From positions 86,552,001 through 86,616,000 of the forward strand of contig OZ024740.1 of assembly GCA_964016885.1 (NCBI GenBank): a stretch of DNA of 64,000 nucleotides, read 5' to 3'. Positions 1,553 to 64,000 of this stretch are shown piece by piece (position 1 is the stretch's first letter; each line of letters starts with the position of its first letter). Below the pieces are notes generated by a model. It did no database searches and was not told the origin of the DNA. It saw only the letters and a program-made list of their open reading frames with translations. This DNA is from Eledone cirrhosa (Eukaryota). Position numbers and translations under genes: made by a program.

Positions 1553-1555
<3 letters not shown>

Positions 1556-3851
1556 CAAAGGAATTGTGGTAAGGAACCAGATGGACCATAACGCACCAGA
1601 GTGCTCAATACTTAGGGTAGTAGAGTGGGAAATAGGAAAAAGTATGACCCCGACGGCAGAGCTCAAGCCGTTTCGACGGCTATTCTGGACTAAATTAGAA
1701 CTTTTAGCCTGGTGAATAAATAGCCGAACCTGTCAAGGGGGTACTTCCTTATATGGGAAGATTGTAGTTGTCAAGAGGATTAGTTAAAATTTGTTGTAAA
1801 CACAAATAAGTCTATCATGGCATTTGCTGGGAGGTAGGGGTGGCTCAACTTGCCTGTAGAACAATAGGGGAGTGAGTGGAGCGGTCAAGCGTTGAAAGTG
1901 ATATGTATACAGCAGATTCGAAGGATAGTGTATGAAGTGGAGGAGGGAGGTTATAGAATAGGTAAATAGAATGAAAGTAGGAGACAATAAAAGATAATAG
2001 AAAGAAATTAAAAGAAATATAAAATTAGATAGCGAGAAATGAATAAAAAAATTACAATGCTATCTTACAATTACAGGTTAATAAGTTGGGAATAGAAAAA
2101 ACTTGTAGAAATTACAAAACTGAAACAAAATTAAAGTGGTTTAACACATCTGCTATAAGTAGTTAGTAAAACGTAATAGGCTAAGTCTATCTTAAAATTA
2201 TAGGGGTGGGGTAACTGATTCTACAGAGGCCCGATGGGCTGCATCGGGGTAGGCGAAAGGGGAAAAGCAGAGAGGAAGAAAATAGGGGGTGGAAGGAAGT
2301 GATAAGATGAGACAGGGGGGAGAAGAAGACAAAGAGGGAAAGAAAAGAGATACAACAACCTATGTAAGCTGGGGTTTCCCCTAATTTATTCAGCAAGTTG
2401 GGGGGGTCAACCCTTGTCTACCCACCCGGGTCTTTATGGGGTTTGAGGGCGAGGTAAGTCCTACGCAATCTGTGTTTGCATGCGGTTACCAGTTCGTCTT
2501 TCTTGTTTAGGAGTTGGTCCTTCGAAAACAACATTTGTAATGTTTCCTACGAGCATAAGTTACAGGGACGGCGTCCTCCCGTGTAAGAGTTAGCTCTGAA
2601 CAGTAAGCTCCAAGTGAGACTGTAGATTATATTATTATCTTGGAGGTCCCAGATGTGGCCCGAAAGTGTAGTGGCATGTCGCCGGACCGGGTTTCAGAAA
2701 GTATGTCGGTGTTGGTAGAGCCGGGTCTTGAAGTCACACGCGGTTAATCCTATATAAGCTTTGTTGCAGGTGTCCGTCCTCACGTTGCACTGGTAGATTT
2801 CTCGGCATTTCTTCTTGAGGGGACAGGTAGATCTATCAGGACAGTTACACCTCCTGGTCGGCTCTCCACTGATGTCTAGGTTATTTCTTCCATAGGGGTT
2901 GAGTTTTTTGTTGTTTGAGGAGACGATGTTTTGTGCGAAGTTAGGTGTGGTGCTGTAGGAGAGTTTGGTGGTGTTTTTGTTGATTACGTTGTGGTAGCGG
3001 TGTTGTGGGAAGTGTTTTTCGAGGAGTCTAAAGAAGATTTTCCCGATAGGTGTTGCCACCTCGGCATTATGGGGAGGATTGAACCACGTTACGTTGCGTG
3101 AGCGGCGGTGTCACCTGCTGGTTCCGCTAAGGGAATCTGGATAAAAGAATATTTCCTCCCGGAAGCCACTCCGCTTGAGGGCCTGGTTGTAATGAGGCGC
3201 GTGTTCGTCGAATTAGCAGACAAACGAGATATGCGGAGGGAGATGTTTTTAACCAGGTTATTGGTGATGTTTCTAGGATGGTTAGAGCGGCGGTGGATGT
3301 AGTGCAGGTTGTCGTTTGGTTTCCTGTATGGGTAGTACAGATCATTTTAGAGGTTAAGGGTAACGTCCAGGAAGTTGACTCGGGTTAGGGACTTTAGTAG
3401 GGTGATTTTAAATTCCCAGTCCCGGAAGAAGTTGATTAGGTGTTTACGCACCCGGTCTGTACTACTGGGGTTGTACCCTTTGAGGGTGAGGAGCCAATCA
3501 CCCCGGTACAATCCACCGCCGAATGCAGGAAACATTTCGGTGAGTTTAAATAGTAGGAATAATCCTATAAGATCTGTGACCTCGGCCGAATCCGTCGCGC
3601 CCATACTGACGTCGAAGGGAGAATCGGGAGCTCTCTTTATCCACTTGGAGTTGTCGAAAAGTAGGACTGTCTTCCTGGCGTGGAGAATGATATTTCTTTC
3701 CTGGTCAGTGATGGGTGTGAGTGTTTCGGCAAAGTCCAAGGCGGCCGTAAGGAGCGGTAAGGTAATAGATGCATAGCAACTCTCTATGTCAAACTGGATG
3801 AATTTTGTGTCTCGTTTGTCCTCCATATTCCTGAACCATGAGATTACTTCC
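1553..3851 (-). mobile_element. Penelope-like element family A, left inverted arm (5'-truncated RT + GIY-YIG + 3' UTR), defective
   Basis: Minus ORFs 3347-3952 (FIQFDIES, DVSMGATDSAEV, VNFLDVTLNL) and 2694-3059 (CNCPDRSTCPL, IYQC..YIGLT); reverse complement of 4258-6516; starts right after (TA)n. Confidence 0.92.
1640..1746 (-). ncRNA. Type I hammerhead-like ribozyme, variant core UUGACAG, extended stem II (family A, left arm)
   Basis: Minus strand: AAGTA-C-CCCC [TTGACAG] G TT CGGCTATT..AATAGCCG TC [GAAA] CGGC..GCCG [TC] GGGG-TCA-TACTT; stems I, II and III all pair. Confidence 0.65.
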
Positions 3852-3889
3852 GACATCATGGTGCACTCCTGAACCATGAGATTACTTCC

Positions 3890-6516
3890 GACATCATGGT
3901 GCACTCGGACAAAACTGGAAACGTCTACTTCGTCAACCCTGACAGATACCACACACTGATCAGGAGCAGCCTAAACTCCACCTATAAAAAGGCTAAACAT
4001 TCAATTATCGAGGACATAAATCAAGATGGACAACAAATTACCCCCAGCCTCGGGGTCGCCGACCGTACTGAACCCCTAGACCCACGGACTACCTACTTCA
4101 CACTGAAGGACCACAAATCCGACTTCGACCGCAAACCATCCATTAGGCTTATAAACCCAACGAAGTCGGGCATAGGGAGAATCAGTAAAAAGATCGTAGA
4201 CCGAGTTATAGCAAAAGTTAAGCAAAACGTGAGACTTAGCCTATGGGTCAGCACCCAGGAAGTAATCTCATGGTTCAGGAATATGGAGGACAAACGAGAC
4301 ACAACATTCATCCAGTTTGACATAGAGAGTTACTATACAGCTATTACCTTACCGCTCCTTACGGCTGTCTTGGACTTTGCCGAAACACTCACGCTCATCA
4401 CTGACCAGGAAAGAAATATCATTCTCCACGCCAGCAAGACAGTCCTACTTTTCGACAACTCCAAGTGGATGAAGAGAGCTCCCGAATCCCTTTTCGACGT
4501 CAGTATGGGCGCGACGGATTCGGCCGAGGTCACAGATCTTATAAGATTATTCCTACTATGTAAACTCACCGAAATGTTTCCTGTATCTGGCGGTGGATTG
4601 TACTGGGATGATGGGCTCCTCACCCTCAAAGGGTGTGCTACCGGTCTATACTACCCAAGTAGTACAGACCGGGTCCGTAAACAACTAGTCAACTTCTTCC
4701 GGGACTGGGAATTTAAAATCACCCTACTAACGTCCCTAACCCGAGTCAATTTCCTGGACGTTACTCTTAACCTCGAAAATGATCTGTACTACCCATACAG
4801 GAAACCAAACAACAACCTCCACTACATCCACCGCCACTCTAACCATCCTAGAAACATCACCAATAACCTGGTTAAAAACATCTCCCTCCGCATATCTCGT
4901 TTGTCCGCTAATGAGCAGATATTCGACGAACATGCGCATCATTACAACCAGGCCCTCAAGCGGAGTGGCTTCTGGGAGGAAATATCCTTTTATCCAGCTT
5001 CCCTTAGCGGAACCAGTAAGCGACACCGCCGCTCACGCAACGTAACGTGGTTCAATCCTCCCCATAATGCCGAGTTGGCAACACCTATCGGGAAAATCTT
5101 CTTTAGACTCCTCGAAAAACACTTCCCACTACAACACCGCTACCACAACATAATCAAACACCACCAAACTCTCCTACAGCACCACACCTAACTTCGCACA
5201 AAACATCGTCTCCTCAAACAACAAAAAACTCAACCCCTATGGAAGAAATAACCTAGAGATCAGTGGAGAGCCGACCAGGACGTGTAAATGCCCTGATAGA
5301 TCTACCTGCCCCCTCAACAACAAATGCCGAGAACATAACGTGTTCTACCAGTGCAACGTGAGGACGGACACCTGCAACAAAGCTTATATAGGATTAACCG
5401 CGTGTGACTTCAAGACCCGGCTCTACCAAAACCGACATACTTTCTGAAACCCGGTCCGGCGACATGCCGTTACACTTTCGGGCCACACTTGAGACCTCCA
5501 AGATAATAATATAACCTACAATCACACTTTGAGCTTACTGTCCACAGCTAACTCTTACACGGGAGGACGCCGTCCGAGTAACTTATGCTCGGAGGAAACA
5601 TTACAAATGTTGTTTTCGAAAGACCAACTCCTAAACAAGAAAGACGAACTGGTAACCGCATGCAAACACAGATTGCGTTGGACTTACCTCGCCCTCAAAC
5701 CCCATAACGACCCGGGTGGGTAGACAAGGGCTGATCCCCCCCCCCAACTTGCCGAATATGTTAGGGGAAACCCCAGCTTACATAGGTAGTTGTATCTCTT
5801 TTCTTTTCCTCTTTGTCTTCTTCTTATCCCTGTCTCATCCTATCACTTCCTTCCACCCCCTATTTTCTTCCTCGTCTGCTTTTCCCCTTTCGCCTACCCC
5901 GACCGATGCAGCCCATCGGGCCTCTGTAGCATCAGTTCCCCACCCCTGTAATTCTAAGATAGACTTGGCCTATTACGTTTTACTAACTACTTATAGCAGA
6001 TGTGTTAAACCCCTTTAATTTTGCTTCAGTTTTGTAATTTCTACAAGTTTTTTCTATTCCCAACTTATTAACCTGTAATTGTAAGATAGCATTGTGATTT
6101 TTTTCATTCATTTCTTACTATCTAATTTTATATATTTTTTTATTTCTTTCTAGTATCTTTTATTGTCTCCTACTTTCATTCGATTTACCTATTCTATAAC
6201 CTCCCTCCTCCACTTCATACACTATCCTTAGAATCTGCTGTATACATATCACTTTTAACGCCTGACCGTTCCACTCACTCCCCTATTGTTCTACAGGCAA
6301 GTTCAGCCACCCCTACCTCCCAGCAAATGCCATGATAGACTTATTTGTGTTTACAACACATTTTAACCAATCCTCTTGACAACTACAATCTTCCCATATA
6401 AGGAAGTACCCCCTTGACAGGTTCGGCTATTTATTCACCAGGCTAAAAGTTCTAATTTAGTCCAGAAATAGCCGTCGAAACGGCTTGAGTTCTGCCGTCA
6501 GGGTCATACTTTTTCA
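3890..6516 (+). mobile_element. Penelope-like element family A (Nematis-like), right arm, 5'-truncated, defective
   Basis: ORF 3896-5191 carries PLE RT motifs (SDKTG, FDIESYY, MG, YWDD for YRDD, NFLDV, YRKP..HSNHP, WFNPP); a frameshifted GIY-YIG follows at ~5200-5720, then the 3' UTR ending at (CA)n. Clade label is inference. Confidence 0.93.
6404..6511 (+). ncRNA. Type I hammerhead-like ribozyme, variant core UUGACAG (family A, right arm)
   Basis: Same fold as 1640-1746; core 6414-6420, GAAA 6477-6480, GTC 6497-6499; the first stem I pair is a mismatch in this copy. Confidence 0.6.
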
Positions 6517-6517
6517 T

Positions 6518-6518
<1 letters not shown>

Positions 6519-29730: not shown

Positions 29731-30341
29731 ACAGACAGGCAGAGAAAACCGAAAGAGAGAGAGAGGGATAATGGGTGGGGAAAGAGAAGATGGGAAATGA
29801 AGTAAATTAAGTAAAGAAAGACTCATTTATTTGATCAATAGGTAACTGTATTTTAGAGAGAATGTCTAATTGAATGAATCAGGTCCATATTATTCTGTCT
29901 TATCGTCTTATCGTTTATTGGTGAAAGACAACAACATCCAGAAAAGTAATAAAAGGTTGATTGGATAAAATCTACAATTCAGTTTGATGGATGGAAAAAA
30001 TATATTGGAGAATGAAATGATCTTGATTTATTGTTTTTGTTGTCTTTTGTTTTCGGTGAATAATAATACTAACTAGCAGTTTATCTCTCTCTCTTTATAT
30101 ATATATATATATATAAACAATTAAGTTAAAAATGTACATCTACATATGCATACTGAAATACTAGTGTGTATATGAATACACACACGTATACATATGTAGG
30201 TGTACCAAGTCTTTCACTGGTCGCTTTACAGTGAGCGGCCCAGCTATTCTGTATGTAAACACACAGACAAACCGGTTTTTAGAGTCATACTAGTTTTTCG
30301 GGGGAACACCTTCCCCCTATTCTCCAGAAAGCCAGACAAGG

Positions 30342-30386
30342 AATATTGAACTAGTTTCGTTGTTGTTACAACTCATCAGCAATATT
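30342..30386 (-). ncRNA. Minimal type I hammerhead ribozyme
   Basis: AATATTG CTGATGA GTTG-TAACAA-CAAC GAAA CTAG TT CAATATT: 7-bp stem I, canonical core, palindromic stem III. Confidence 0.9.
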
Positions 30387-30808
30387 TACCTATCTACCGG
30401 CCTTTCTGGAGAATTGTAAAAGCACATATCGTTATATGCTTTTTCTATGAAAATTAGTAGTGGGCAGACTAATTTGCATAGAGTGTGAGTACGCACCGGT
30501 TCAGCGGAGACGATAAAAACAAATAACGAAACGAAATTAAATTTCGTTTCGTTTGTAACTCACTTTTGTATGACTGGCGCTTAAACAATTAAGTTAAAAA
30601 TGTACATCTACATATGCATACTGAAATACTAGTGTGTATATGAATACACACACGTATACATATGTAGGTGTACCAAGTCTTTCACTGGTCGCTTTACAGT
30701 GAGCGGCCCAGCTATTCTGTATGTAAACACACAGACAAACCGGTTTTTAGAGTCATACTGGTTTTTCGGGGGAACACCTTCCCCTATTCTCCAGAAAGCC
30801 AGACAAGG

Positions 30809-30853
30809 AATATTGAACTAGTTTCGTTGTTGTTACAACTCATCAGCAATATT
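30809..30853 (-). ncRNA. Minimal type I hammerhead ribozyme (second unit)
   Basis: Identical to 30342-30386, 467 bp away. Confidence 0.9.
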
Positions 30854-31148
30854 TACCTATCTACCGGCCTTTCTGGAGAATTGTAAAAGCACATATCGTT
30901 ATATGCTTTTTCTATGAAAATTAGTAGTGGGCAGACTAATTTGCATAGAGTGTGAGTACGCACCGGTTCAGCGGAGTTACAAACGAAACGAAATTTAATT
31001 TCGTTTCGTTATTTGTTTTTATCGTCTCCGCTGAACCGGTGCGTACTCACACTCTATGCAAATTAGTCTGCCCACTACTAATTTTCATAGAAAAAGCATA
31101 TAACGATATGTGCTTTTACAATTCTCCAGAAAGGCCGGTAGATAGGTA

Positions 31149-31193
31149 AATATTGCTGATGAGTTGTAACAACAACGAAACTAGTTCAATATT
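31149..31193 (+). ncRNA. Minimal type I hammerhead ribozyme (inverted unit)
   Basis: Core CTGATGA 31156-31162, GAAA 31177-31180, predicted cleavage after GTT at 31186. Confidence 0.9.
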
Positions 31194-31510
31194 CCTTGTC
31201 TGGCTTTCTGGAGAATAGGGGGAAGGTGTTCCCCCGAAAAACCAGTATGACTCTAAAAACCGGTTTGTCTGTGTGTTTACATACAGAATAGCTGGGCCGC
31301 TCACTGTAAAGCGACCAGTGAAATACTTGGTACACCTACATATGTATACGTGTGTGTATTCATATACACACTAGTATTTCAGTATGCATATGTAGATGTA
31401 CATTTTTAACTTAATTGTTTAAGCGCCAGTCATACAAAAGTGAGTTACAAACGAAACGAAATTTAATTTCGTTTCGTTATTTGTTTTTATATATATATAT
31501 ATATATATAT

Positions 31511-32165
31511 TGTTATACTTTGGGAGAGTCATGTTTCCAATAAGAAGCACACGCACCAGTTGCTTTCACTTCAATTTATTATAATAAATTTATAAATTTC
31601 TGGTTGGTTGGTTGGTTCCACAACCAGATGATTGTTTATATATTGTCAAAGTTCTTTCGTCACACATTCTGTGACCTCTTCAGTGACTGGGGATTCTTTT
31701 CTTTGTTTTTGTGCCTCTCCTTTGTTCTGTCCTACGCCATCTTGTTTTTGTGTGTGTTTTGTGTGCTTAGTTTGCGCATGTGTTACATCCGGGTGTCTGT
31801 GTGTGTTTATATTCGTTTATTTATTTTTTTATTTACATGTTACTGGTTGTGTTGTTGGTTCTATGTGTGTGTTTTCATTTTGTCCTTAATTGTAAGTTGT
31901 GATGTTGCTGTTCCACTCATATTTTCTATTTAATTTTGGTTGGAGTTCATTTATCTTTATTGCCTCTGTGATTTGTCTAAACATTGCGTCTTTTCTGTGT
32001 GTAGATTCTATTTTTATTTCTATGTTCTCTAATTTACCCTTATGTTCTATTTTAGCATGTTGGTAGAGTACAGATGATTCTATACTATCTTGAAGGTCTC
32101 GCCAGTTTTCATTTATCCGTTCCCCTATACTACGAGCTGTCTCACCTATGTACACTATATTTTTA
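31511..32165 (-). mobile_element. PLE family C 3' fragment (GIY-YIG C-terminal half + 3' UTR)
   Basis: IVYIGETARSIGERINE..H..RQITEAIKI..LNRKYEW; the 3' end abuts (TA)n. Confidence 0.85.
31645..31687 (-). ncRNA. Minimal type I hammerhead ribozyme (family C)
   Basis: GTCA CTGAAGA G GTCACA-GAATG-TGTGAC GAAA GAAC TT TGAC. Confidence 0.8.
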
Positions 32166-32170
32166 TCTAT

Positions 32171-33950
32171 GTTCTTGTTATTGTTAGGTACATCTGACCT
32201 CAATTCTTGTGTTGGTAGTGTTGTTATTGTTGGAGTTAGCTTAAAACATTGATAATGTGGTTGAAGGAACAAGGTGGTAAAGGAACAATATAACAAAAAA
32301 ATGTCAAACTTCCCATTGGTCAGTTTTGAGAGCATTCCTCAGTCAGAAGTCTATAGAAATTCTTTCTGGGGTGAGGCTCCCTGTAGTGTTTGTGTTTGCT
32401 ATTGTTAAGTACATTTGACCTCCACCCTTATTTCGGTAGTGTTGTTGGTGTTGTTGTCAGCTTATGTCTTGCTGCTGCTGCTGACAATTTGGAAGTGTCT
32501 ACCATAGGGAACAACCCAGGCTGAGCAGACACCATGATAGCCTAGAGATTGAATGGGACACAGCTATTATAATTTGGCCAACATCTATATAACACAAACA
32601 CATTTTAATTTACTTGATTTCTGATTTTCAAACTTCAATTTTACATCTTGATTTCTCTTTATTAATTTGTTATTTGTTTTCTGTTCTCTTCACTGTATCA
32701 CCTTATATTTATTTTTAAGTTGAGATTGATTATAACACAAACACATTTTGTTTGATTATCTTATTCTTTTATTATTTTAACATCTTGTCCCTCATACCAA
32801 TCTATCCAACATATTTCTGACCTTGAGATTGGTTATAGCACACACACACTTTATCCTACTTTATTTGAATCTTCATTTTATTTTTCACTTCTCCATATTC
32901 ATTTTCATTACTTTTTCACCAATTTTTCATTTATTCTTTATTCTCTATTTATTTTTGATTTTCTGTTTTCTTCATTTATTGCCTTATGTTTTTATACATG
33001 GAAGAACCCCCCCACCCCCCCCACCACCACCACCACCACCACCACCACCACCCCTCCCCCTACCACCACCACGGGAGATGGTGGCAGGGGGGATGAAAAA
33101 ACACACACAGATACTTCTAAATTGTATGAAGAAATATAAGGCAATAAATGAAGAAAACAGAAAATAAAAAATAAATAGAGAATAAAGAATAAATGAAGCA
33201 TTGGTGAAAAAGTAATGAAAATGAATATGGAGAAGTGAAAAATAAAATGAAGATTCAAATAAAGTAGGATAAAGTGTGTGTGTGCTATAACCAATCTCAA
33301 GGTCAGAAATATGTTGGATAGATTGGTATGAGGGACAAGATGTTAAAATAATAAAAGAATAAGATAATCAAACAAAATGTGTTTGTGTTATAATCAATCT
33401 CAACTTAAAAATAAATATAAGGTGATACAGTGAAGAGAACAGAAAACAAATAACAAATTAATAAAGAGAAATCAAGATGTAAAATTGAAGTTTGAAAATC
33501 AGAAATCAAGTAGATTAAAATGTGTTTGTGTTATATAGATGTTGGCCAAATTATAATAGCTGTGTCCCATTCAATCTCTAGGCTATCATGGTGTCTGCTC
33601 AGCCTGGGTTGTTCCCTATCGCAGATACTTCTAAATTGTCAGCAGCAGCAAGACATAAGCTGACCACAACACCAACAACACTACCGAAATAAGGGTGGAG
33701 GTCAAATGTACTTAACAATAGCAAACACAAACACTACAGGGAGCCTCACCCCAGAAAGAATTTCTATAGACTTCTGACTGAGGAATGCTCTCAAAACTGA
33801 CCAATGGGAAGTTTGACATTTTTTTTGTTATTTTGTTCCTTTACAACCTTGTTCCTTCTACCACTTTATCAATTTGTTAAGCTAACTCCAAAAATAACAA
33901 CACTACCAACACAAGAATTGAAGTCAGATGTACCTAACAATAACAAGAAC
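32171..33950. repeat. Long inverted repeat, ~815-bp arms (32171-32987 / 33136-33950) with a C-rich spacer
   Basis: The arms are near-identical reverse complements; ORFs 32823+ and 33300- give almost the same peptide. Confidence 0.9.
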
Positions 33951-34212
33951 AACAACTACAGATTGGCTTGCCTCAGAACGAATTTCTATAGACTTTTGAA
34001 TAAGGAATGTTCTAACAACTGACCAATGAGAGAAGAAGAGGCCCTTTCACTCTGAAATTCGTTTGTTTGAATTCATATGATTCCAGTTCCTCAGTGAAAT
34101 AACAACCCAACCAGGAACTGGGCATATCAGAGTATTGACAAAATTATACACCTCAACAACATATGTATTTGTCTATACCACACTAATTCGGACTGCCTGA
34201 AATATATATTTA

Positions 34213-49009: not shown

Positions 49010-49295
49010 ATCTTGGTTAAGAGAGTGGGACTGGCTTTGTGCAGTGCCTTTGATCACAATAATAGCTTCATGGCACAGGCATTGCTTTGTATCTGGAGAT
49101 CTCTCTGCACTTGTGGTCACATAGTACCATGGGCCCAGCACTATGTGTCAATAATTGTCACAAGTGTAGTGTTCGTACCAGAGTTTTCAAGTCGCTGGCT
49201 GGACTAAAAAGTCACACTCGTTCAGCGCATCGGTAGGGGTTCTCCTACATGGATATAAAGTAGTGGCCGTACTCGAAAACGAGTTGGCAGCCACC

Positions 49296-49298
<3 letters not shown>
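49010..49298 (+). mobile_element. RTE-family 3' fragment (C2H2 finger + 3' stem-loop)
   Basis: Encodes HKCSVRTRVFKSLAGLKSHTRSAHR*, like the last finger at 35023-35100; near-identical to 61146-61388. Confidence 0.8.
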
Positions 49299-49346
<48 letters not shown>

Positions 49347-49477
49347 AAGGATTCTTCAGAGGCACACAACGAAATAAAGGATTTAATAAAGAATCCTGTA
49401 TGGGTATGAGTAAGATTTTAACATCGAAATTCATATCTCGGTGTTACAAAGTTAAATGTTTATGTTTGTGAACAAAG

Positions 49478-49522
49478 GGACGCTGTACTAGTTTCAAGCT
49501 TATTAGCTATCGTCAGCAATCC
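49478..49522 (-). ncRNA. Minimal type I hammerhead ribozyme
   Basis: GGA TTG CTGACGA TAGCTAATAAGCTT GAAA CTAG TA CAG CG TCC. Confidence 0.75.
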
Positions 49523-49743
49523 TGCCAGATTGTTGAACGTATATACTTACCTTATGCATATTAACGGCTGAGTAGCCCAATTTGCATATCGAGTGGGTTA
49601 ATCGGCCGGGTGCACCGAAAACGATAAACATACTTATATTTAAGTAACAGCCGTACTAAGAGTGGGAAATGAAATTTCGTTTCATTTTTTCCGTTTATCG
49701 TTTTAATATGCATAAGGTAAGTATATACGTTCAACAATCTGGC

Positions 49744-49800
49744 AGGAAGGTATACGTTTCTGACGATAGCTAATAAGCTTGAAACTAGTACACCGTTCCT
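49744..49800 (+). ncRNA. Hammerhead ribozyme copy with disrupted proximal stem I
   Basis: Core 49760-49766, GAAA 49781-49784, CTAGTA; only the distal AGGAA/TTCCT and GGT/ACC pairs form. Confidence 0.55.
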
Positions 49801-50024
49801 TTGTCAGTGTTGAACAAACGAGCAACGATGGTTGCTAGACACTACGGCTTAATACGGGATGTTTGTTCACAAACACACTGAGCATTATAATAAATGTTGG
49901 GTGAATCCATACGTACATATATATATGTGTGCATGTATGTATATATATATATAGATACTACTGTACGTCTGTATACATATATGTATGTGCGTGTACATAC
50001 TTATATATATATATATATATATAT

Positions 50025-50761
50025 ATACATAATCGGAGAAAGCTAATAGCGATACTCCGGCCAAATTCCAACTCACTCAACAAACATTAGGAAATACCTG
50101 AGTATATTCCTAATTAAACGTTCGGGGTGCTAACTAATTGTATTGTGTGGAAAATTGGCTGTATCAGTTCATATGAGATATATCAAATATATCTCTTCCC
50201 AGACGGACGTCTCGTTTCACTATAAGATTTCTACAAGTTGGGTGAAATTATACCAATTTATGTAGAAGCTTGTATAAGATCAACAGATACTTATTCAAGT
50301 GGGCTCTTATAATTCTTCAGTGGGTGCCCAATAATATTAATATTGATAATCAAATCAACATCAATATTTAGAGATAATCACCATCAGTGCTTGAGGGAGC
50401 TGCTAGTTTGTTAGTCCAGCAGTTCTAAAGAAAATCTCACACTGTCTCGAAAATAGGAGGAAGGAGATTATCGCCAAAAAACAATATATGCGCAGGTCAA
50501 TAAATTCTGAAAAGAATTCAAGCCACGTGCTAGAACTCAATTGGATATGAAAAAATAACCATATGTGCGCATCGCTTGATGACACACATAGATATTTTCT
50601 CGGCAAAATAACAGAATGAGATACAAGAACAAACAATCAATATTCATATAAAAAATAAACAAAGAGAGTCATACCTTATATCGGGAAAGTTCATATCTGT
50701 TGCTCCAAGAGTAAATATATAAATACATAATTGGAGAAAGCTAATAGCGATACTCCAGCCA
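50025..50761 (-). mobile_element. Retrozyme/solo-pLTR-like 698-bp unit with 39-bp terminal direct repeat, in (TA)n
   Basis: ATACATAATYGGAGAAAGCTAATAGCGATACTCCRGCCA at 50025 and 50723; internal HHR; TA runs on both sides. Confidence 0.75.
50198..50324 (-). ncRNA. Type I hammerhead with 77-nt branched insertion in stem II
   Basis: CCCA CTGAAGA ATTATAAGA [77 nt] TCTTATAGT GAAA CG-AGACGTC-CG TC TGGG. Confidence 0.8.
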
Positions 50762-50796
50762 TATATATATATATAACATATTTATTCATACATACA

Positions 50797-50848
<52 letters not shown>

Positions 50849-50888
50849 TGTATGTATGTATGAATAAATATGTTATATATATATATAA

Positions 50889-51036
50889 CGAAGGAATTGT
50901 GGTAAGGAACCATATCGACCATAACGTACCAGAGTACTCAATACTTAGTGGGTAATAGGAAAAGTATGACCCCGACGGAGTCCAGAAATAGCCGTCGAAA
51001 TGGCTTGAGCTCTGTCGTCGGGGTCATACTTTTCCT
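50889..51036. mobile_element. Miniature inverted remnant of PLE family A termini
   Basis: 50889-50978 matches 1556-1656; 50979-51036 matches 6459-6515; (TA)n on both sides. Confidence 0.85.
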
Positions 51037-51046
51037 ATATATATAT

Positions 51047-61145: not shown

Positions 61146-61382
61146 ATGTATGTATATATATATATACAGGCATTGCTTTATATCTGGAGATCTCTCTGCA
61201 CTTGTCGTCACATGGTACCATGGGCCCAGCACTAAGTGTCAATAATTGTCACAAGTGTAGTGTTTGTACCAGAGTTTTCAAGTCGCTGGCTGGACTAAAA
61301 AGTCACACTCGTTCAGCGCGTCGGTAGGGGTTCTCCTACATGGATATAAAGTAGTGGCCGTACTCGAAAACGAGTTGGCAGC

Positions 61383-61388
<6 letters not shown>
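61146..61388 (+). mobile_element. RTE-family 3' fragment (C2H2 finger + 3' stem-loop)
   Basis: HKCSVCTRVFKSLAGLKSHTRSARR*; flanked by (TA)n. Confidence 0.8.
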
Positions 61389-61444
<56 letters not shown>

Positions 61445-61588
61445 TATTTTCCGTTGTGTTGTAATATAAATATTACACACAGTAGATTGACAGCACACGT
61501 AGAGTTTGCTCGACGGTTCCAGTTGTAGTTCCAAAAGTAATCCGGAGAAAAATAGAAAGATTTGAATGGATACAGTTTAGTTGAAAGG

Positions 61589-61716
61589 AATTTATTGACA
61601 CGTGTTTCTATAACAGTTACATAACCTGAAAACAGCTGCAATCTACAAAGTTTTAGTTATGCAGACATTCAATATTTCAATGTTATTATTTACTGTCATT
61701 TCATCAGAATAATATT
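61589..61716 (-). ncRNA. Type I hammerhead with 74-nt branched stem II insertion (family F, left arm)
   Basis: TTATT CTGATGA A ATGACAGT [74 nt] ACTGTTAT A GAAA CACGTG TC AATAA. Confidence 0.75.
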
Positions 61717-62300
61717 ACTGAGGACCTATTTGGTTTTTATAGAGAATATTAGGAGGGAGGGGTGAAGTTGTTAGAAGAATAGTTGAGGGAGTGGTTTTTT
61801 GATAGCAGTGAGAATTTGGTGGCAGTGAGTAATTAGATTCCCATCTGTTGTTTTGACATTTTTATAGAATATATTATTGGTTATTTTTCTAAATCTATAG
61901 AAGGATTAGAGATAGTAAAGATATGCGTGGTTGGTTTTGTGTTTGCACTTAATTAACATTCAGACTTAAATTTTTCTTTCAAGTGTACGTATCCTTTCAC
62001 CCACGCATTCACACACAAATATATTTGCACACCTCTACAAAATACATATACTCACATTCACATAGTAACATGTTCATACTTACATACATATACACATGCA
62101 CACATATATATATACACACATGTATTCATGTACATACATACGCGTTCATGTGTATACATTTTCATACTCAACTTATCTTTAATTACTCACTGCCACCAAA
62201 AATTCTCACTGCTATCAAAAAACCACTCCCTCAACTATTCTTCTCACAACTTCACCCCTCCCTCCTAATATTCTCTATAAAAACCAAATAGGTCCTCAGT

Positions 62301-62428
62301 AATATTATTCTGATGAAATTACAGTAAATAATAACATTGAAATATTGAATGTCTGCATAACTAAAACTTTGTAGATAGCAGCTGTTTTCAGGTTATGTAA
62401 CTGTTATAGAAACACGTGTCAATAAATT
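62301..62428 (+). ncRNA. Type I hammerhead with 74-nt branched stem II insertion (family F, right arm)
   Basis: Core 62310-62316, GAAA 62409-62412, palindromic CACGTG, GTC 62418-62420, stem I TTATT/AATAA. Confidence 0.72.
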
Positions 62429-62611
62429 CCTTTCAACTAAACTGTATCCATTCAAATCTTTCTATTTTTCTCCGGATTACTTTTGGAACTACAACTGGAA
62501 CCGTCGAGCAAACTCTACGTGAGCTGTCAATCTACTGTGTGTAATATTTATATTACAACACAACAGAAAATACTGTATATTCACCTCCTGTAAAGTCGAG
62601 CAACCACAACA

Positions 62612-64000
62612 ATGGAAAAACACTACCTGGATATGTCACTCAAAAACATACGAACCCAAGGTAGAAAGGAATATTTATTGAGTATGATTCAAAAAACTAA
62701 TGAATTCATTCGACGTGTCAGGTGGAAAACGCTCCACTATGATAGAAGCCGTATGAACTCAACATTAGAAAGTGGTGTAAACAACAAATTCGGTTTTAGG
62801 ACGTGTAAAAACCCACCCACCAACCCACTATTAGATGCATTTGAGCAGGACCTTATGAACTTAATCCTTAAAATTAAATTCAAAGGACGCAACACCAACA
62901 ACAAATTACAGAAAGATATAAAAAAAACTACTGGACGACCTTAAAAACACCAAAGGAATTGTAGTAAAAGCGGACAAAACATCAAACTTGTATACTATGG
63001 ATTGCACTACACACAACAACTTCATTCGAAAAGAATTACATAAAAAATATAGAAAAACGAATGAAGTAACTCTTAAGCACATCAATGATGAGTCATGCGA
63101 AATAGTGAAAAATCTCGGAATCGAAGATAGGACAGGACCACTCTTACCGGCGGTACCCACCTTCAATCTTAAGGACCATAAGGTAAACTTTGATAATGAC
63201 CCTAAAATTAGATTAATCTGCCCCTCTAAATCAGATATAGGTAAAATAAGCAAATATATCTTAGATAGAATCATCCCCCAAATTAAGGCTAAGGTTAACA
63301 TTAAACTCTGGGGGAAGACCCAGGAAGCAATAAGATGGTTTAATAGCATTAGCAATAAGAATAAATCTAAGTTTATCCAGTTTGATATCGATGAATATTA
63401 CTCATCGATATCACCTGAAACTTTGAATAGAGCCATTAAGTTTGCTAAGGATAACTCTGACCTTACAAACGATGAAATTAAGATTATATTAGAAGCTAGG
63501 AAAACTATAGTCAAATTTGAGAACAGTTATTGGGTACGTAAAGATAGACCCTCTAACTTTGACATAACAATGGGCTCTAACGATTCGGCGGAAATAACTG
63601 ATATTGTGGGGTTATTTATCGCCTTTAGACTCCAGGAAAAATTCAGCAATCTCCACGGCGGAATATACCGCGACGATGTTCTCCTAGTTAAAAACCTAAA
63701 TAACCAAAAACTAGAAAAACTACGCAAAGATATAAGAAAACTACTACTCGAAATAGGACTAACTATAACATATGAATACAACCTTAAAGTAGTTAACTTC
63801 CTGGGTGTCACACTCAATTTAAACTCTGGTTTGATTAAACCGTTTCATAAATTGAATGAAAATCTCAAATACGTAAATGTTGGGTCTAACCACCCCATCT
63901 CTATAATTAAATCTATCCCTAAAAATATTTCCCTTAGAATCTCGGGTCTATCTTCTAACATACAAGTATTTAAGGAACACGCCGAGTACTACGATAACGC
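62612..64000 (+). pseudogene. PLE reverse transcriptase ORF with a single frameshift in an A-run (~62920)
   Basis: MEKHYLDMSLKNI..RRVRWK.. then, in a shifted frame read by hand, ADKTSN, LKDHK, FIQFDIDEYY, FDITMGSNDSAE, YRDD, GSNHP, open to the window end. Confidence 0.88.

What the first reader, a model, noticed from the sequence alone, without database searches (positions are those of the whole stretch)
50025..50761. 698-bp unit plus 39-bp terminal redundancy in (TA)n carrying a hammerhead
Seen: a 39-nt direct repeat (2 mismatches) brackets a stretch with no recognisable protein motif; both sides are (TA)n and an HHR lies inside. Inference: slightly more than one turn around a circular or tandem template. 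This makes it a second, larger retrozyme-like family or a solo PLE pseudo-LTR.
Basis: partly seen in the sequence, partly recalled or inferred. Interest (0 to 1): 0.7.

Follow-up and report, generated by a model that had tools for sequence, protein, structure and literature searches.

The report
Retrozyme with branched-arm hammerhead ribozyme
A 698-base non-coding repeat, found in many copies in public sequencing runs, sits in a TA microsatellite with 39 bases repeated at its ends and carries a predicted self-cutting hammerhead RNA with an unusually long branched arm that Rfam misses; it is likely a parasite copied by Penelope-like retrotransposons of the Hydra group, a known kind of element.

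Summary
Observation confirmed. The 39-nt repeat (37/39, spacing 698) brackets a non-coding unit between (TA)n tracts. A complete type I hammerhead lies on the minus strand (core 50320, GAAA 50218, predicted cut 50202|50201; 0 of 3000 shuffles match as well). Rfam misses it because helix II encloses a 77-nt insert predicted to fold as two hairpins. Laid runs show a large repeat family (1,824 and 1,505 contigs in two organisms) with head-to-tail junctions in one of them, so it is neither single-copy nor a target-site duplication. Copies look polar, not randomly permuted: one end is fixed at (TA)n, depth falls toward the other, with no step at the cut site. This fits a non-LTR retrozyme, a non-autonomous Penelope-like (PLE) derivative whose 39-nt overlap is the known PLE 'tail'. 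A Hydra-type PLE in the same window has a hammerhead with a similar 92-nt branched helix II; none of 19 hammerhead hits in 13 loci of other Hydra-like PLEs exceeds 24 nt. No sequence link to that PLE was found. Cleavage, expression and circles are untested, and a circular versus tandem template cannot be told apart. Known kind, unusual ribozyme variant.

The parts
50002..50024 (.). (TA)n tract at the fixed (RNA 3') end; inferred insertion target
   Evidence: TA-flanked loose ends at the equivalent place in 17 + 8 contigs of run X1
50025..50063 (-). 39-nt terminal repeat, left copy (RNA 3' end); predicted hairpin; inferred PLE-type tail and reverse-transcription start
   Evidence: tail concept from Craig et al. 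2021 and Frangieh et al. 2024
50052..50115 (-). 3'-terminal domain with by far the highest depth in the laid runs; includes predicted hairpin 50086-50114; candidate RT-binding region (inferred)
   Evidence: X1 203k-274k, X6 31k-57k; folds
50198..50324 (-). type I hammerhead ribozyme motif: stem I 50324-50321/50201-50198, core 50320-50314, helix II 50313-50305/50227-50219, GAAA 50218-50215, stem III, predicted cleavage between 50202 and 50201
   Evidence: searches (0 of 3000 shuffles, strict; fold 3.5 kcal/mol above the MFE), family variants
50228..50304 (-). 77-nt insert in loop II: 5-nt linker plus two predicted hairpins (50299-50269, 50267-50229)
   Evidence: fold of the helix II span, -21.8 kcal/mol; same two hairpins
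50300..50330 (-). 5-bp pairing 50330-50326 with 50304-50300: candidate stem I / loop II pseudoknot, or a competing fold
   Evidence: this helix is formed in the unconstrained MFE; a pseudoknot role is inferred, with no covariation data
50025..50722 (-). 698-nt monomer, non-coding, 34% G+C
50723..50761 (-). 39-nt terminal repeat, right copy (RNA 5' end of the insertion); its two differences from the left copy are at one hairpin base pair and are both CpG-type transitions
50762..50887 (.). right flank: (TA)n-centred fold-back of 63-nt arms, 95% complementary; may belong to this or to the adjacent PLE insertion
   Evidence: I1

Best explanation
This is one insertion of a 698-nt non-coding repeat family carrying a type I hammerhead motif, likely a non-autonomous Penelope-like element (non-LTR retrozyme) that a Hydra-type PLE protein would copy in trans by nicking (TA)n DNA and starting reverse transcription at a fixed stem-loop about 177 nt downstream of the ribozyme cut site. 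The template would be longer than one unit in effect: an uncut head-to-tail transcript, or the circle made after hammerhead cleavage and ligation. The enzyme reads through the cut site, usually stops early, and here ran one unit plus the 39-nt tail. Shown: repeat, family, hammerhead motif, head-to-tail DNA junctions in organism C, TA-flanked ends. Inferred: transcription, cleavage (probably as a dimer, given the weak near-palindromic stem III), circles, target priming, the identity of the partner. My split for the template: uncut multimer 0.5, circle 0.4, template jump 0.1.
For: Family: 1,824 (X1, organism A), 15 (X4, B) and 1,505 (X6, C) contigs and 2,392 reads (X8, A) laid at 80% or more likeness. 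Head-to-tail joints in X6 with both sides long enough to pass the 39-mer: 50715->50027 (side 100, 1 contig), 50650->50027 (side 59, 2 contigs), 50688->50029 (52), 50664->50038 (46). Fixed end: TA-flanked loose ends in 17 + 8 X1 contigs at the two equivalent tail starts. Polarity: X1 summed depth 274k at 50077-50101, mean 79k at 50102-50201, 49k at 50202-50301, 6.8k at 50527-50726; 65k vs 67k across the cut site. Ribozyme kept in the family: U.G becomes U-A in helix II in 59,256 of 60,182 depth (X1); two A-U to G.U changes keep pairing; the variable core position changes to give CUGAUGA; none of the 40 variants shown hits an invariant core base; loose ends show a short stem III before the cut in organisms A and C. 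PLE hallmarks in print: 30-40 bp tail, (TA)n insertion by Hydra, internal RT start downstream of the ribozyme. Co-resident PLE at about 61441-64000 with Hydra motifs RWK and DKT: type I hammerhead with 92-nt helix II span, whose inverted copy folds as helix plus two hairpins, palindromic loop III, end 156 nt past the cut, in (TA)n. The 19 hammerhead hits in 8 of 13 loci of other Hydra-like PLEs have spans of 12-24 nt.
Against: No significant sequence similarity to any PLE or other hammerhead element in the window: 32 of 100 shuffles scored as well for the 62-kb PLE, 3 of 100 for the 1.5-6.5-kb PLE, among four comparisons; 3' ends also unrelated. No dimer with two hammerheads was seen, and no laid piece spans the unit. 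Summed contig depth is not a copy number; the window copy's divergence rises to the right and sister families may share only the 3' end, so the gradient is confounded. X1's library type is not on record and it may be the source sample. 233 variants, 32 joints and 511 loose ends were not shown. One shown variant (50313, 3,632 of 3,706 depth in X6) breaks the first helix II pair unless its partner also changes. The hammerhead fold is not the MFE (helix II probability about 0.3, stem I 0.07 or less). The forward copy of the 62-kb PLE's helix II span folds as one long hairpin, not two. In the Xenopus tests 8 of 9 predicted retrozymes did not cleave.
Confidence: 0.7

Rival explanations
1. It is the pseudo-LTR or truncated end of an autonomous PLE whose ORF lies elsewhere in the genome, and not an independent non-autonomous unit.
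For: Hammerhead, tail and (TA)n target are all pLTR features. Depth drops about threefold near 50100-50115, where differing sequence follows in 7 X1 contigs, so some larger element may share the 3' end. Retrozymes and pLTRs are related in Xenopus.
Against: In the window the 5' tail runs straight into the unit body, and the same body-to-tail junction occurs in organisms B and C. The share of laid contigs running on into unlike sequence is 0 in X1 and 0.07 in X6. No PLE protein similarity in the unit.
Confidence: 0.15
2. It is an orphan of a satellite DNA array spread by DNA-level recombination or rolling-circle DNA, and the hammerhead is a passenger.
For: Head-to-tail junctions exist in DNA. 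Retrozyme arrays can expand as satellites. Nothing here shows an RNA.
Against: A fixed end at (TA)n, a 3'-to-5' depth gradient and a tail-sized overlap are not expected from satellite recombination; the ribozyme's pairing is kept in family variants.
Confidence: 0.08
3. Copies are inserted from a circular RNA primed at arbitrary points, so genomic copies are free circular permutations of one monomer.
For: 1.06 units; no depth step at the cut site; circles are shown for other animal retrozymes.
Against: Coverage is far from flat (more than tenfold between the ends in X1), and the TA-flanked loose ends shown for X1 fall only at the tail start (most loose ends were not shown).
Confidence: 0.07

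Closest known systems
Metazoan non-LTR retrozymes (Cervera and de la Pena 2020, PMC7229834: passages and sections 14, 17 read; Li, Clavereau and Pollet 2026, bioRxiv 10.64898/2026.07.22.740005: parts 1-3 of 5 read)
   Same: Non-coding, AT-rich unit with one type I hammerhead; solo monomers are common; 698 nt lies within the 51-972 bp family range of the 2026 preprint; proposed mobilisation by PLEs from more-than-unit templates.
   Different: Larger than the 170-400 nt invertebrate units of the 2020 paper; helix II carries a 77-nt branched insert; no array or dimer seen here; no RNA data.
Hydra-clade Penelope-like elements (Craig et al. 2021, PMC8557442 and its preprint: passages, section 11, search hits in supplement S1)
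   Same: (TA)n insertion, 30-40 bp tail, hammerhead near the end; two Hydra-type PLEs lie in this window, one with a similarly expanded helix II.
   Different: No RT or endonuclease ORF; no sequence similarity to the window's PLEs; other Hydra-like loci have helix II spans of 12-24 nt.
PLE hammerhead variants (Cervera and de la Pena 2014, PMC4209133: passages and the descriptor in its supplement)
   Same: Short helix I (4 bp), long helix II, weak palindromic helix III suited to dimer cleavage; that paper already proposes circular templates and more-than-unit insertion.
   Different: Its descriptor allows helix II of 3-7 bp and loop 2 of 3-10 nt; this motif has 9 bp and 77 nt, and A-U in place of the usual G10.1-C11.1.
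Poseidon PAc of Anolis (Frangieh et al. 2024, PMC11167929: parts 1-2 of 4 read)
   Same: Fixed internal RT start in a stem-loop downstream of the hammerhead; tail bounded by two start sites; AT-rich target; uncut RNA is the main template in vitro.
   Different: PAc is autonomous and starts 111-118 nt into its ORF; here the end is 177 nt past the cut and the RNA beyond it is TA-rich, so primer pairing is possible (inferred).

Membership tests
Type I hammerhead ribozyme | Conserved core CUGANGA, GAAA, UH in order with three helices, helix I open | tested here: met
   0 of 3000 shuffles strict, 1 of 3000 loose
Type I hammerhead ribozyme | Match to an Rfam hammerhead model | tested here: not met
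   no hammerhead hit in the unit up to E 10; the long insert is the likely reason
Type I hammerhead ribozyme | Covariation of helices across copies | tested here: inconclusive
   variants mapped: 3 of 4 helix II changes keep pairing, 1 breaks it unless compensated; copies could not be fetched for an alignment
Type I hammerhead ribozyme | Self-cleavage | not testable with these tools
   needs in vitro transcription
Metazoan non-LTR retrozyme | Non-coding unit, G+C under 45% | tested here: met
   34% G+C; no protein match
Metazoan non-LTR retrozyme | Multi-copy family | tested here: met
   1,824 and 1,505 contigs in organisms A and C, 15 in B
Metazoan non-LTR retrozyme | Tandem units, at least two hammerheads in a row | tested here: inconclusive
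   head-to-tail joints past the tail in organism C; no full dimer seen; the window holds 1.06 units
Metazoan non-LTR retrozyme | Highly self-paired RNA | tested here: inconclusive
   z -7.0, but 6 of 18 control tiles of this transposon-rich window also reach -7 or lower (8 shuffles each)
Metazoan non-LTR retrozyme | Expressed as linear and circular monomer RNA | not testable with these tools
   no RNA run was available to lay
Penelope-like element, autonomous | RT and GIY-YIG endonuclease ORF | tested here: not met
Non-autonomous PLE derivative (Hydra-type) | 30-40 bp tail at an end | tested here: met
   39-nt overlap against the published range; that it is a tail by mechanism is inferred
Non-autonomous PLE derivative (Hydra-type) | Insertion in (TA)n with a fixed 3' end | tested here: met
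   window flanks; 17 + 8 TA-flanked contigs in X1
Non-autonomous PLE derivative (Hydra-type) | 5' truncation of copies | tested here: inconclusive
   depth gradient, confounded by divergence and by summed contig depth
Non-autonomous PLE derivative (Hydra-type) | Sequence shared with the pLTR or 3' end of an autonomous partner | tested here: inconclusive
   none with the window's PLEs or with 13 other loci; the genome was not available

The most novel reading that the evidence does not exclude
A lineage of Hydra-type PLEs and their retrozyme parasites share a hammerhead class in which helix II ends in a two-hairpin junction closed by a pseudoknot to stem I. The insert is a protein-binding module that gates cleavage, and the 698-nt circle is reverse transcribed from one fixed start by the Hydra enzyme. 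Such ribozymes escape Rfam and the published descriptors, so a layer of large animal retrozymes has been missed, and this pair names a retrozyme's mobilising enzyme.
Probability: 0.25. Interest if true: 0.7.

Novelty: new variant of a known kind. Interest (0 to 1): 0.45.

Why it matters
Which enzyme mobilises animal retrozymes, and on what template, is still a proposal in the papers read. This element carries PLE footprints (tail, fixed end, TA target) together with a ribozyme shaped like that of a Hydra-type PLE in the same window, so a specific enzyme-RNA pair can be tested. Its hammerhead lies outside Rfam's models and the published descriptor limits, so surveys probably undercount such elements. 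The kind of element, its size range and the tail are already known.

Tried and rejected
No whole genome is held for this window, so copies could not be collected. No RNA holder listed. Rfam at E up to 10 found no hammerhead in the unit. A 20-nt pattern scan of metagenome contigs gave two loci sharing only 20-22 nt, chance matches. The Hydra-type profile found no relative in viral contigs. Read ends in run X8 (6 of 6 shown) fall on AATT sites, so they are taken as restriction ends of the RAD library and not used; X8 joints from the right 39-mer are not counted as head-to-tail evidence, since they may be ordinary left ends aligned to the right copy. A seven-residue IPYIGKV string on the + strand recalled a PLE motif (from memory); it is antisense to the ribozyme and unsupported by tblastn, so rejected. 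Target-site duplication rejected: the 39-mer is joined to unit sequence in other copies. Folding z-score rejected as a discriminator. Earlier-findings look-ups by sequence, place and a long word list were empty. Paper searches for a long or branched helix II and for cephalopod hammerheads listed no description of one; Lunse 2017 and Arkhipova 2017 are not held, and supplement file S2 of Craig 2021 and the supplements of the 2026 preprint were not read, so a prior report is not excluded.

Full report
Observation. The direct repeat is at 50025-50063 and 50723-50761, 37 of 39 identical, 698 apart; 200 shuffles gave at most 27 of 39. Both flanks are (TA)n. The unit is single in the window, 34% G+C, and shows no protein match (the Pfam scan also missed the window's PLE enzyme, so the tblastn with 120 PLE proteins is the better test). 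The host is an animal by its repeat content; its SINEs recall octopus to me, which is from memory and untested.

The ribozyme. Rfam finds no hammerhead in the unit. A descriptor allowing a long helix II finds one on the minus strand: stem I of 4 bp, CUGAAGA at 50320, helix II of 9 bp enclosing a 95-nt span, GAAA at 50218, a 3-bp stem III whose loop holds a 6-nt palindrome, and GUC with the cut between 50202 and 50201. One of 3000 shuffles passes loose rules and none passes rules as strict as observed. The 77 nt inside helix II fold as a 5-nt linker and two hairpins. The linker can pair with five bases just upstream of stem I. That helix is the one the unconstrained fold prefers, and the hammerhead fold lies 3.5 kcal/mol higher, so it is either a pseudoknot or a competing off state. 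The whole unit folds well (z -7.0), but so do 6 of 18 control tiles.

The family. No genome was held. Of 10 runs listed, four were laid at 80% likeness: 1,824 contigs in X1 (organism A, library type not on record), 15 in X4 (B), 1,505 in X6 (C), and 2,392 genomic reads in X8 (A). In X6, contigs pass from the right part of the unit back to its start with both sides longer than the 39-mer (50715->50027, side 100; 50650->50027, side 59, two contigs; two more with 52 and 46). The body-to-tail junction is therefore a fixed family feature and runs on head-to-tail in DNA; a loose end in organism B shows the same junction. In X1, 17 and 8 contigs show a TA run directly before the tail, as in the window. 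Summed depth in X1 falls from 274k at 50077-50101 to a mean of 79k (50102-50201), 49k (50202-50301) and 6.8k (50527-50726), and is 65k and 67k on the two sides of the cut site. The tool warns that this depth is no copy number, divergence rises to the right, and most variants, joints and loose ends were not shown, so polarity is likely, not proven. Family variants mostly respect the ribozyme: a U.G pair of helix II is U-A in 59,256 of 60,182 depth, two A-U pairs become G.U, and the variable core base changes to give CUGAUGA. One change at the first helix II pair in organism C breaks pairing unless its partner changes too. 125 of 315 X8 reads lack four bases of loop III, and loose ends in A and C show a shorter, near-palindromic stem III, the form that favours dimer cleavage. 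The two differences between the terminal repeats sit at one hairpin base pair (C-G versus U-A) and are both CpG-type transitions. Either decay after insertion from one template or two variant monomers could explain this.

Neighbours. The window holds two PLEs with Hydra-clade motifs as defined by Craig et al.: one at 1555-6518 (DKT, CxCX5C linker, GIY-YIG-like stretch) and one from about 61441 on (RWK, DKT). The second begins at (TA)n and carries a type I hammerhead with a 92-nt helix II span and a palindromic loop III, ending 156 nt past its cut site, against 177 nt here. Its inverted copy folds as helix plus two hairpins, like this unit's; its forward copy folds as one long hairpin. The first PLE has a 55-nt span. 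In 13 loci (58 kb) of other Hydra-like PLEs, fetched from prokaryote assemblies where they are probably host DNA, 19 hammerhead hits in 8 loci all have spans of 12-24 nt. The long arm thus looks local to this lineage and shared between an ORF-bearing PLE and this unit. No sequence similarity supports descent from either PLE.

Mechanism. Shown: the repeat, the motif, the family, DNA junctions, TA-flanked ends. Inferred: a minus-strand transcript; binding of a Hydra-type enzyme at the 3' hairpins; nicking of (TA)n; priming at a fixed internal site, possibly helped by the TA-rich junction; read-through of the cut site; frequent early stops; here one unit plus tail. Frangieh et al. showed fixed internal starts bounding the tail and use of uncut RNA for a Poseidon PLE. 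Cervera and de la Pena showed circles for coral, mussel and axolotl retrozymes and proposed them as templates. The lack of a depth step at the cut site argues against cleaved linear monomers as the main template but does not separate circle from multimer. That the 5' end stops exactly at the tail's edge fits the report of tails at either end but is not explained.

Comparison and novelty. It works like a non-LTR retrozyme or non-autonomous PLE. Membership is met for the motif, non-coding AT-rich unit, copy number, tail and target; it is open for dimers, cleavage, circles and a partner. The size is within the 51-972 bp range of Li et al. 2026, who also link retrozymes to pLTRs. What departs is helix II: the published descriptor allows a 3-10 nt loop and a later core search a 7-17 nt spacer, with 35-50 nt cases set apart. 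My searches listed no report of a branched helix II in such elements, but two key papers were not held and some supplements were unread. A Hydra family from Octopus bimaculoides is already listed by Craig et al.. Verdict: new variant of a known kind, interest 0.45.

Noticed in passing
window 61441-64000: Hydra-type PLE (RWK, DKT motifs; ORF frameshifted near 62920) with inverted pLTR copy and a type I hammerhead whose helix II spans 92 nt (62310+, 61707-); not found by Rfam.
   Followed up: partly
window 1555-6518: Hydra-type PLE in inverted arrangement with an atypical hammerhead core (U3-A8 type, G at position 9), 55-nt helix II span, one end in (TA)n and one in (CA)n; a copy of its end with a fold-back lies at 50888-51040, next to the unit.
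   Followed up: partly
window 30114-31490: Another retrozyme-like family: about 468-nt unit in tandem plus inverted copy, three compact hammerheads (Rfam HH9 38.6 bits, below the gathering score); its two TA-flanked ends differ by a 69-nt extension.
   Followed up: partly
window 49345-49890: Inverted element just left of the unit with two degenerate hammerhead cores (49516-, 49760+) and a 36-nt match to the 468-nt family.
   Followed up: no
window 31507-33951: GIY-YIG-like ORF fragment (31886-32338, minus) with a compact hammerhead at 31683- and an 820-bp inverted repeat: a third PLE remnant.
   Followed up: no
window 50034/50059 vs 50732/50757: The only two differences between the terminal repeats form a compensatory pair in the tail hairpin and are both CpG-type transitions.
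   Followed up: partly
L003-L015: Contigs in bacterial assemblies that encode Hydra-like PLE reverse transcriptases, 8 of 13 with hammerheads; probably host animal DNA binned into those assemblies.
   Followed up: partly
window 49075-49344 and 61166-61435: Two 97% identical copies of a 270-bp repeat end ending in (TA)n; each tract is followed by a hammerhead-bearing element, suggesting nested insertion into microsatellite tails.
   Followed up: no
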